Source: a virus (Duplodnaviria; Heunggongvirae; Uroviricota; Caudoviricetes). From it: a DNA stretch of 7,950 bases. A program made the position numbers and the translations under genes. This document shows positions 3,336-3,413 of the stretch, piece by piece (the stretch's first letter is position 1; the number at the start of each line of letters is the position of its first letter). The stretch spans positions 1-7,950 of IMG/VR virus record IMGVR_UViG_2547132274_000015, one strand, 5' to 3'. Under the pieces are notes generated by a model. That model did not search any database, was not told where the DNA came from, and saw only the letters and a program-made list of their open reading frames with translations.

Positions 3336-3413
3336 ATGCAAAGAGATATGCTGAATATTGCGTTCTACATATTTGGTTTTTGCACGTTCCTGGTGTTTGC
3401 GAAGCTATTCTGA
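3336..3413 (+). CDS. Hypothetical 25-aa hydrophobic peptide (MQRDMLNIAFYIFGFCTFLVFAKLF), a possible small membrane protein. Not in the supplied ORF track.
   Basis: ATG at 3336 is preceded by GGAGG (3327-3331) and lies 20 nt after the mnt stop on the same strand. The ORF runs to TGA at 3411-3413. The product has a single hydrophobic helix-length core flanked by charged residues (R3, D4, K23). Its last 9 nt overlap the 3' end of the convergent gp16-like gene. Confidence 0.3.
   Translation: MQRDMLNIAFYIFGFCTFLVFAKLF

What the first reader, a model, noticed from the sequence alone, without database searches (positions are those of the whole stretch)
3336..3413. Unannotated 25-codon hydrophobic ORF with a strong Shine-Dalgarno just downstream of mnt
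GGAGG followed by ATG at 3336 opens a 25-aa ORF (MQRDMLNIAFYIFGFCTFLVFAKLF) that looks like a single transmembrane helix. It is co-oriented with mnt and 20 nt from its stop, so it is probably co-transcribed. Its 3' end overlaps the stop region of the convergent gp16-like gene. It occupies the place where P22 encodes the membrane superinfection-exclusion protein SieA. Small hydrophobic peptides of this size are known as membrane-active toxins (Hok/TisB/Ibs-type) and as phage exclusion or holin-modulating factors. A mini-module of an RHH repressor plus a small membrane peptide is an attractive candidate for an undescribed exclusion or toxin-like system, but this is inference from a short ORF.
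Basis: inference. Interest (0 to 1): 0.55.

Follow-up and report, generated by a model that had tools for sequence, protein, structure and literature searches.

The report
Unannotated phage exclusion mini-protein gene
The 25-codon ORF is a real, conserved, never-annotated small membrane-protein gene of P22-like prophages, and its Salmonella counterpart sits inside a published "antisense RNA" that blocks reinfection, so the peptide rather than the RNA may be what shuts the door to incoming phage DNA.

Summary
GGAGG (3327-3331) and ATG 3336 to TGA 3413 encode MQRDMLNIAFYIFGFCTFLVFAKLF, 20 nt after mnt, overlapping the convergent gp16-like gene by 9 nt.

The ORF is a genuine gene. It is intact in all 205 loci recovered without using the ORF body. 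In total I found 294 loci and 72 distinct peptides across Escherichia, Shigella, Salmonella, Citrobacter, Kluyvera, Klebsiella phage, Erwinia and Arsenophonus. A Shine-Dalgarno is present in at least five different upstream contexts. Substitutions show a clear coding pattern: in the 23-aa Salmonella-type set, codon positions 1/2/3 carry 50/15/156 changes, omega about 0.11, p = 4e-55; in the window's 25-aa set, omega is about 0.40, p = 2e-4.

The gene is tied to the 3' end of L/Sf6-type gp16, not to mnt. No genome record I examined and none of four family libraries lists it.

The BTP1 homologue lies inside STnc6030. This published 786-nt "antisense RNA" excludes BTP1 when cloned, does not affect induction, and is escaped by non-synonymous SNPs in gp16 residues 583-595. 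That segment also holds the P22 SieA-escape site P546.

My best explanation, at about 0.6 confidence and untested, is a tiny inner-membrane superinfection-exclusion protein that blocks gp16-dependent DNA entry. The "mnt plus toxin module" idea is not supported.

The parts
3327..3331 (+). Shine-Dalgarno GGAGG, 4 nt upstream of the ATG
   Evidence: Read directly. GGAGG is kept in 190 of 294 homologous loci, a 4-mer core in 32, a weak match in 68 and none in 4. At least five unrelated upstream contexts each supply their own SD-like motif.
3336..3413 (+). Small ORF: 25 codons plus TGA, MQRDMLNIAFYIFGFCTFLVFAKLF. Predicted single-helix inner-membrane peptide and proposed superinfection-exclusion effector.
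   Evidence: Intact in 121/121 and 84/84 independently retrieved loci. Coding-type substitution pattern with omega 0.40 (25-aa set) and 0.11 (23-aa set), and no new stops in this frame against 2-11 in four of the five other frames. The BTP1 homologue lies inside the exclusion-conferring STnc6030 clone.
3055..3315 (+). mnt homologue (86 aa, Arc N-terminal domain plus Mnt C-terminal domain). It is the co-oriented upstream gene and the likely source of transcription for the small ORF in this window. It is not an obligatory partner.
   Evidence: Pfam PF03869 at 53.4 bits and PF11423 at 52.7 bits, both above cut-off. PGAP annotates the same coordinates in E. coli ES9. No terminator-like site lies between it and the ORF.
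3405..5402 (-). gp16-type DNA-ejection protein gene (665 aa, L/Sf6 sequence type). It is convergent and its last 9 nt overlap the small ORF. It represents the proposed target class.
   Evidence: PGAP names it 'P22-gp16 family phage DNA ejection protein'. It matches Sf6 gene 13. Every small-ORF homologue found abuts this gp16 type, whereas P22-type and Sf101-type gp16 lack it.
3588..3647 (-). gp16 residues 586-605 (GQQTIPFIIGYGTAMNPATT). This segment is homologous to the sites where escape from exclusion maps in BTP1 (residues 583-595) and in P22 (G532, P546).
   Evidence: Translation and alignment. P22 G532 aligns with window G586. P22 P546 aligns with window A599 and BTP1 V589. BTP1 583-595 aligns with window 593-605. 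Escape data come from PMC7067206 and PMC10883804.

Best explanation
The ORF encodes a 25-residue single-helix inner-membrane peptide made by the prophage. In this window it is probably made from the mnt transcript. It belongs to a previously unannotated family of 23-26 aa peptides with an N-terminus of roughly M-x-R-D-x-L-N-[IF]-A-F followed by a hydrophobic tail. The gene sits antisense at the very end of the L/Sf6-type gene 16 of P22-like phages. The proposed mechanism is superinfection exclusion at the DNA-entry step: the peptide interferes with the C-terminal hydrophobic, glycine-rich segment of incoming gp16, which forms the cytoplasmic-membrane end of the ejection conduit, so superinfecting DNA does not enter. 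Induction of the resident prophage would be unaffected.

What is shown: the gene is real, conserved and under purifying selection; the homologous BTP1 DNA fragment confers exclusion; and escape mutations change gp16 amino acids.

What is inferred: that the peptide, not the RNA, is the effector; that it resides in the membrane; that it acts directly on gp16; and that the 25-aa E. coli form does the same as the 23-aa Salmonella form.
For: (1) Coding signature. In the 23-aa set, 221 parsimony changes fall 50/15/156 on codon positions 1/2/3, with omega about 0.11, p = 3.8e-55 and no new stops. In the 25-aa set, 79 changes fall 22/19/38, with omega about 0.40 and p = 2e-4. Four of the five other frames show omega of 0.88 or more (0.88-4.2) and gain stops. 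The exception is the wobble-sharing antisense frame, which has omega 0.61 and 0.24, gains 2 and 0 stops, and shows an atypical codon-position order.

(2) The ORF is intact in 121/121 and 84/84 loci found without using the ORF body. Between the two length types, 9 of the first 16 residues are identical, and 7 of those 9 use different codons.

(3) An SD is kept across at least five upstream contexts.

(4) The BTP1 homologue (D23580 404321..404250) lies wholly inside STnc6030 (404727..403942). It is the only ATG-plus-SD ORF there.

(5) That cloned fragment gave total immunity to BTP1 but not to P22. It had no effect on prophage induction. Escape arose at 4e-8 through four SNPs, all non-synonymous, in gp16 residues 583-595. 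ORFs were only screened above 60 aa (PMC7067206).

(6) P22 SieA-escape P546S aligns to BTP1 residue 589, inside that segment, and G532W aligns 7 residues upstream of it. In BTP1 and L gp16 this segment is the most hydrophobic 19-mer of the whole protein.

(7) I found no stable RNA fold and no Rfam match on either strand.
Against: There is no direct evidence of translation or membrane location. The escape SNPs lie inside the region covered by the annotated 786-nt RNA, so the published antisense model is not excluded. All phenotypes come from the 23-aa BTP1 form, and nothing has been tested for the window's 25-aa form. Constraint on that form is weaker (omega 0.40), and its intactness alone is not significant (p about 0.11). 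Phage L carries a homologue yet is described as lacking superinfection-exclusion genes; I could not check from the sources I read which phages were used as testers on L lysogens. No promoter or terminator was identified for the ORF in the window. Co-variation between peptide subtype and gp16 segment is only coarse and is confounded by physical linkage.
Confidence: 0.6

Rival explanations
1. The peptide gene is real, but exclusion at this locus works as published: the long antisense transcript pairs with the gp16/tailspike late mRNA of the incoming phage. The peptide would then have a different role, for example modulating a host membrane protein, or STnc6030 is a dual-function RNA.
For: The escape SNPs lie in the part of gp16 that is antisense to the annotated 3' end of STnc6030, and P22 lacks nucleotide similarity there. 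The transcript is abundant in lysogens, with mean TPM of about 90.
Against: Over-expression did not reduce phage yield on induction, although late mRNA should then be equally targeted. From general knowledge of long antisense RNAs, a single mismatch should not defeat about 320 nt of perfect complementarity. All four escape SNPs change amino acids, and they fall in the same gp16 segment as the SieA-escape mutation P546S (G532W lies 7 residues upstream of it). The largest Northern band was about 500 nt. If it starts at the mapped 5' end, it would end near the small ORF's stop, roughly 140-190 nt short of the SNP region (inference). Strong purifying selection on the peptide sequence needs its own explanation.
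Confidence: 0.22
2. The peptide is a membrane-active toxin of a type I toxin-antitoxin-like or holin-modulating system. In one version, mnt is its regulator.
For: It is small and hydrophobic like Ibs, TisB or ShoB. Its mRNA is fully antisense to late-operon RNA. It is adjacent to an RHH protein in this window.
Against: There is no match to any toxin family or RNA antitoxin family. The ORF occurs without mnt, and mnt occurs without the ORF. Constitutive plasmid expression of the BTP1 fragment allowed normal lawns and normal spontaneous phage titres. The strong, exposed SD is unlike the sequestered ribosome sites that I recall as typical of type I toxins.
Confidence: 0.08
3. It is not a gene. 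The sequence would be conserved as the 3' flank of gp16 or through recent common ancestry, and the open frame would be accidental.
For: Close E. coli relatives are 90-99% identical, and intactness within that set alone is not significant (p about 0.11). T-rich strands readily give hydrophobic ORFs.
Against: The 23-aa set shows 156 of 221 changes at third codon positions with omega 0.11, and 0 of 5,000 simulations stay intact. The gp16 read-through frame has omega above 1 and gains stops. Amino-acid conservation persists across codon changes between the two types. The SD is conserved while neighbouring bases vary.
Confidence: 0.03

Closest known systems
STnc6030 'antisense RNA' of Salmonella prophage BTP1 (Owen et al. 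2020, PMC7067206)
   Same: It is the same locus. It is transcribed in lysogens on the strand opposite the late operon and spans the gp16 3' end. The window's ORF is the positional and sequence homologue of a 23-codon ORF lying entirely inside STnc6030. STnc6030 is an experimentally shown, type-specific superinfection-exclusion determinant.
   Different: STnc6030 was classed as non-coding after a screen for ORFs above 60 aa. It starts inside the tailspike gene. In the window the upstream part is replaced by mnt, and the BTP1 start region is not conserved. The peptide forms differ: 23 versus 25 aa, with 9 of the first 16 residues identical. No experiment exists for the E. coli form.
P22 SieA (type A/B/C inner-membrane superinfection-exclusion proteins; Leavitt et al. 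2024, PMC10883804)
   Same: It is a prophage gene in the interval between gene 16 and gene 9 and encodes a membrane protein. SieA exclusion is a block of DNA injection. Escape maps to the C-terminal region of gp16, and P546S falls inside the BTP1 escape segment in the alignment.
   Different: There is no sequence relation. SieA is 164 aa or more with several helices and an FxRYPxEAxxFNK motif, against a single helix of 23-26 aa here. SieA excludes phages with diverse gp16 types and needs three changes for full escape. The BTP1 determinant spares P22 and is escaped by single SNPs.
HK97 gp15 moron (YebO-like small inner-membrane exclusion protein; PMC3594210)
   Same: It is a small membrane protein encoded as a stand-alone unit inside the virion-gene cluster and expressed from the prophage. 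It blocks genome entry without touching the receptor. Specificity lies in the incoming phage's DNA-conduit proteins.
   Different: The family is unrelated, with no Pfam, NCBIfam or PHROG match. It acts on long-tailed phages through the tape-measure and tail region. The peptide here is encoded on the opposite strand and overlaps the end of its presumed target's gene.
Type I toxins (Ibs, ShoB, TisB, Hok/Ldr)
   Same: Size and hydrophobicity are similar, and the mRNA overlaps an antisense transcript.
   Different: There is no homology, no dedicated antitoxin RNA and no sign of toxicity in the published expression experiments. The conserved polar N-terminus M-x-R-D-x-L-N is specific to this family.

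Membership tests
SieA family (P22 superinfection exclusion A, types A-C) | Sequence homology to SieA, including the FxRYPxEAxxFNK motif, multiple predicted TM helices and about 160-200 aa | tested here: not met
   The peptide is 25 aa with one hydrophobic stretch and has no Pfam, NCBIfam or PHROG match. The SieA features are taken from PMC10883804.
SieA family (P22 superinfection exclusion A, types A-C) | Gene lies between the gene 16 and gene 9 homologues of a P22-like prophage | tested here: met
   In the window the tailspike is at 1221-2934 (-), the ORF at 3336-3413 (+) and gp16 at 3405-5402 (-). The P22 layout is shown.
SieA family (P22 superinfection exclusion A, types A-C) | Blocks DNA injection, with escape through changes in ejection proteins gp16/gp20 | not testable with these tools
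   Only indirect evidence exists. The BTP1 fragment containing the homologue excludes BTP1, and escape changes gp16 residues 583-595, which align with the P22 SieA-escape site P546. The effect has not been attributed to the peptide.
STnc6030-type non-coding antisense RNA | Transcript antisense to the gp16 3' end, expressed in the lysogen | tested here: inconclusive
   The ORF overlaps gp16 by 9 nt and no terminator follows it, so a transcript would run antisense into gp16. No expression data exist for this E. coli prophage. The BTP1 5' region is not conserved here.
STnc6030-type non-coding antisense RNA | Absence of a functional coding sequence | tested here: not met
   A 23-codon ATG-plus-GGAGG ORF inside STnc6030 is under purifying selection (omega about 0.11, p = 3.8e-55).
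Type I toxin-antitoxin small hydrophobic toxins | Homology to a known toxin family, or a cognate antisense or trans sRNA antitoxin | tested here: not met
   There are no protein-family matches and no Rfam match on either strand at E up to 1.
Type I toxin-antitoxin small hydrophobic toxins | Toxicity on over-expression | not testable with these tools
   Indirect evidence argues against it. Constitutive PLlacO-1 expression of the BTP1 fragment gave usable lawns and unchanged spontaneous phage titres.
HK97 gp15 / YebO-like exclusion proteins | Sequence similarity to YebO/gp15 | tested here: not met
   There is no Pfam or NCBIfam match at E up to 10.
   Sf6, BTP1 and 683R2 have the ORF without mnt. 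L, P6, VSe13 and 720R6 have other genes in between. Sf101 and P22 have mnt without the ORF.

The most novel reading that the evidence does not exclude
A 23-26-residue peptide is the true effector of the exclusion ascribed to the STnc6030 antisense RNA. To my knowledge that would make it the smallest superinfection-exclusion protein described. It would bind the C-terminal hydrophobic segment of the ejection protein gp16 in the cytoplasmic membrane in a gp16-type-specific way. It is also encoded antisense across the stop codon of its own target's gene, so that exclusion factor and target type are inherited as one cassette in about 6% of complete E. coli genomes and in classic phages (Sf6, L, ST64T, BTP1).
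Probability: 0.5. Interest if true: 0.85.

Novelty: new variant of a known kind. Interest (0 to 1): 0.78.

Why it matters
If the peptide is the effector, a textbook-style example of a phage "immunity antisense RNA" would be re-read as an mRNA for a mini-protein. A 2025 review (PMC12197685) still lists it as an RNA.

This would explain the paradox the authors noted, that exclusion occurs without any effect on induction. It would also give a second, much simpler probe than SieA for how gp16 opens the cytoplasmic membrane, because single-residue escape sites are already known.

It would add an unannotated defence gene to well-studied phages (Sf6, L, ST64T, BTP1) and to 316 of 5,426 complete E. 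coli genomes. That matters for phage typing, for phage therapy host range and for small-protein annotation.

It is also a clean case of a gene missed by every pipeline: none of 8 variants is among about 15 billion predicted proteins.

Tried and rejected
- **Rfam:** a search of 2900-3600 at E up to 1 found nothing.
- **RNA folding:** folds of both strands, for the window and for BTP1, give z-scores from -1.35 to +1.33, so no structured RNA is indicated. A hairpin spanning the BTP1 ORF stop is not significant (z = -1.47).
- **Promoter and terminator scans:** none was found near the ORF in the window or in BTP1. A conserved TATAAT sits 22-28 nt upstream in 50 of 84 Sf6/BTP1-type loci but has no acceptable -35 element, so I did not call it a promoter.
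- **Family libraries:** Pfam, NCBIfam and PHROGs gave no match apart from a chance Adipogenin hit at E = 0.11.
- **Large protein collection:** The search for homologous proteins refuses queries under 40 aa. An exact look-up of 8 variants found none.
- **gp16 read-through:** gp16 stays open for 30 more codons past its TAG in the window. I rejected read-through because that frame has omega above 1 and gains stops in relatives.
- **Wobble-sharing antisense frame:** it shows omega 0.24. I rejected it because its codon-position order is wrong (14/47/147), it has no conserved start, and it contains a stop inside the window copy.
- **161-aa upstream gene of VSe13/720R6 as SieA:** BLASTP finds no similarity.
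- **Peptide-subtype versus gp16-segment co-variation:** only a coarse two-type association appears, and it is confounded by linkage.
- **Conservation of the BTP1 STnc6030 start region in the window:** it is not conserved.
- **Structure prediction:** not attempted, because the peptide is below the 30-aa minimum and chimeric inputs are not accepted.

Full report
**Observation**

The window is the immI-like region of a P22-like (Lederbergvirus) prophage of E. coli and is 100% identical to strain G3/10 over the ORF. The gene order is:
- an acyltransferase gene at 1-1167 (+)
- the tailspike at 1221-2934 (-)
- mnt at 3055-3315 (+)
- the small ORF at 3336-3413 (+)
- gp16 at 3405-5402 (-)
- gp20 at 5402-6790 (-)
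- gp7 at 6800-7492 (-)

GGAGG is at 3327-3331. The gap after the mnt stop is 20 nt. The overlap with the convergent gp16 gene is 9 nt. mnt is a bona fide Mnt homologue, with the Arc and Repressor_Mnt domains both above Pfam cut-offs.

**Is the ORF a gene?**

PGAP annotates nothing here in the E. coli records shown, and the phage records that carry the sequence annotate nothing either.

To test conservation without bias, I anchored on a 17-mer at the gp16 stop and pulled 121 IMG/VR loci. These give 49 different nucleotide versions of the 78-nt stretch. All have the ATG, no stop and no indel.

I then searched with the gp16 C-terminus rather than the ORF. One-genome-per-species contigs gave relatives at 76-78% gp16 identity in Citrobacter, Kluyvera, Pseudescherichia, 'Escherichia sp.' and Candidatus Erwinia. 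Each has a 23-codon ORF at the same place, overlapping the gp16 stop and preceded by GGAGG. An example is MDRDLLNFAFLIFGICVGVALFA. Arsenophonus has a 26-aa version next to a broken gp16. Eighty-four further IMG/VR loci with that gp16 type all carry the ORF, in 48 distinct 72-nt nucleotide versions. In total I have 294 loci and 72 distinct peptides.

Parsimony counts on neighbour-joining trees, excluding the start codon and the part overlapping gp16, gave the following.

| Set | Changes | Codon positions 1/2/3 | Omega | p | New stops |
|---|---|---|---|---|---|
| 23-aa | 221 | 50/15/156 | about 0.11 | 3.8e-55 | 0 |
| 25-aa | 79 | 22/19/38 | about 0.40 | 2e-4 | 0 |

Four of the five other frames have omega of 0.88 or more and acquire 2-11 stops. 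This includes the gp16 read-through frame. The one exception is the wobble-sharing antisense frame, which has omega 0.61 and 0.24 and gains 2 and 0 stops. It has the wrong position order (14/47/147), no conserved start, and a stop inside the window copy.

Between the two length classes, 9 of the first 16 residues are identical and 7 of those 9 use different codons, for example AGA versus CGT for Arg3.

One caveat applies. In the closely related 25-aa set, mere intactness is not significant (p about 0.11). In the 23-aa set, 0 of 5,000 simulations stay intact.

There is no Rfam match and no unusually stable fold on either strand. I conclude with high confidence (about 0.95) that this is a translated small-protein gene.

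**Anatomy and context**

The family profile has a polar N-terminus, M-[QEDN]-R-D-x-[LIM]-N-[IFL]-A-F. This is followed by 15-18 hydrophobic residues, often with one Lys or Arg near the C-terminus. The 23-aa form has G14xxxG18 in 33 of 35 distinct peptides.

The gene is found in at least five upstream contexts:
- directly after mnt, as in the window and IME10
- after a 161-aa gene, as in VSe13 and 720R6
- alone between gp16 and the tailspike with no co-oriented neighbour, as in Sf6, 683R2 and BTP1
- after an oppositely oriented orf62, as in L and P6
- in rarer singleton contexts

Each context supplies its own SD-like motif: GGAGG, AAAGG, GAGATGAG or GGTGGAGGG.

The mosaic joints fall within about 12 nt upstream of the ATG. 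Sf101 shares the mnt module up to window position 3323, and Sf6 shares the gp16 module from 3335. P22 and Sf101 have other gp16 C-termini and lack the ORF. The invariant partner is therefore L/Sf6-type gp16, not mnt.

**Link to published experiments**

tblastn shows the 23-aa form in ST64T, ST104, L, g341c, SPN9CC, MG40 and BTP1.

In S. Typhimurium D23580, Owen et al. (PMC7067206) described STnc6030. It is a 786-nt lysogen-expressed "antisense RNA" at 403942-404727 on the minus strand. The BTP1 ORF, MERDLLNFVFLIFGLVVGKLLFA, maps to 404321..404250. That places it entirely inside the cloned fragment, whose reverse primer I mapped. It is the only ATG-plus-SD ORF in the fragment. The authors looked only for ORFs above 60 aa.

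Their results were as follows:
- The clone gives total immunity to BTP1 but not to P22.
- It does not change the yield on prophage induction.
- Escape phages arise at 4e-8.
- The escape phages carry four different SNPs within 404041-404078, all non-synonymous in gp16.

I calculate that these SNPs fall in gp16 residues 583-595 of 655.

Leavitt et al. [quoted passage not shown] In my alignment, P22 P546 corresponds to BTP1 residue 589, inside the BTP1 escape segment. G532 corresponds to BTP1 G576 and window G586. In BTP1 and L, this segment (IPFILGIGTVT[NT]PALVGVG) is the most hydrophobic 19-mer of gp16. The window's equivalent is residues 586-605, nt 3588-3647.

**Mechanism**

The most economical reading is that the peptide is the exclusion effector and acts at DNA entry on the gp16 C-terminal segment. 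Four points favour this over antisense pairing:
- It explains why induction is unaffected.
- It explains why single amino-acid changes give escape, whereas one mismatch in about 320 nt of perfect duplex should not.
- It explains why P22, whose gp16 is only 22-26% identical, is spared.
- It explains why the peptide sequence is under selection.

A further hint is that the largest Northern band was about 500 nt, not 786. If it starts at the mapped 5' end, it ends within about 30 nt of the ORF stop, where a hairpin of non-significant stability lies. That is well short of the escape region. This last point is inference only.

The steps not shown are translation, membrane insertion, direct contact with gp16, and equivalence of the E. 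coli 25-aa form. I put 0.6 on this explanation. The alternatives are 0.22 for RNA-mediated exclusion with the peptide doing something else, 0.08 for a toxin or holin-type role, and 0.03 for 'not a gene'.

**Comparison with known systems**

Functionally it resembles SieA and HK97 gp15. Both are small or modest inner-membrane proteins, expressed from the prophage and encoded within the virion-gene region, that block genome entry and are escaped through conduit proteins. It is not a member of either family or of any toxin family. It is absent from the gene records examined and from a collection of 15 billion predicted proteins. No paper in the searchable library re-reads STnc6030 as coding, and a 2025 review still lists it as an asRNA. 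The phage L genome paper states that L has no exclusion genes, although L carries the ORF.

**Verdict**

The feature is a new, widespread small-protein family that most likely represents a new variant of membrane superinfection exclusion. A one-base experiment could decide the question. The ORF sequence is present in 316 of 5,426 complete E. coli genomes.

Noticed in passing
L004 2526-3011 (Salmonella phage VSe13); L005 1495-1980 (Escherichia phage 720R6): A 161-aa gene lies immediately upstream of the small ORF in some relatives. It begins MKKSLLIIPLLLAGC, which is a lipoprotein signal with a lipobox. It belongs to PHROG 6067 (unknown function) and is not similar to P22 SieA. It may be another prophage-expressed surface or exclusion factor.
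   Followed up: partly
L133 3772-3900, strand opposite to gp16 (Yersinia aleksiciae): A gp16 relative of 65% identity with a different C-terminus has, at the same spot, an unrelated 42-aa ORF. The ORF has a hydrophobic N-terminal helix and an upstream GGAGG (VLEIASFVALAAIVYLIRQVG...). This may be an analogous small membrane gene.
   Followed up: no
L300 2445-2478 and the equivalent stretch in about 50 of 84 Sf6/BTP1-type loci: A conserved block, TTGCGCAGCGTTGCGTTAAGGTCGGTTATAAT, lies 22-55 nt upstream of the small ORF in the gp16-tailspike spacer. It contains a perfect TATAAT and repeated TTGCG elements but no acceptable -35. It could be a promoter or operator for either strand. The window lacks it because mnt takes its place.
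   Followed up: partly
L136 (Arsenophonus MAG) and L304 4956-5648 (E. coli ES9): In two degraded prophages the gp16 gene is broken or truncated. ES9 has lost most virion genes. The small ORF remains intact in Arsenophonus, in a 26-aa form, and its region is retained at 99% identity in ES9. This would fit a host-beneficial function.
   Followed up: no
window 3315-3404, minus strand: The gp16 reading frame stays open for 30 codons beyond its TAG (LRKHQERAKTKYVERNIQHISLHKSSVTDG). Relatives show omega above 1 and stops in this frame, so it is not a read-through extension.
   Followed up: yes
window 1-1167 (+): The acyltransferase-family ORF next to the tailspike is probably an O-antigen-modifying gene. 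The stretch that holds it (window 1-1300, searched) matches in full only 1 of 5,426 complete E. coli genomes (G3/10). The neighbouring mnt to gp16 stretch, by contrast, occurs in hundreds.
   Followed up: partly
hits H14 and H20 (NZ_CP026085.1, NZ_CM135829.1): Two assemblies labelled E. coli DH5alpha carry this P22-like prophage region at 98.3% identity. That is unexpected for a K-12 derivative and suggests mislabelled strains.
   Followed up: no
window 3031-3043: A near-palindrome, CACCCAATTGGTG, lies just upstream of the mnt ribosome-binding site. It may be an operator.
   Followed up: no
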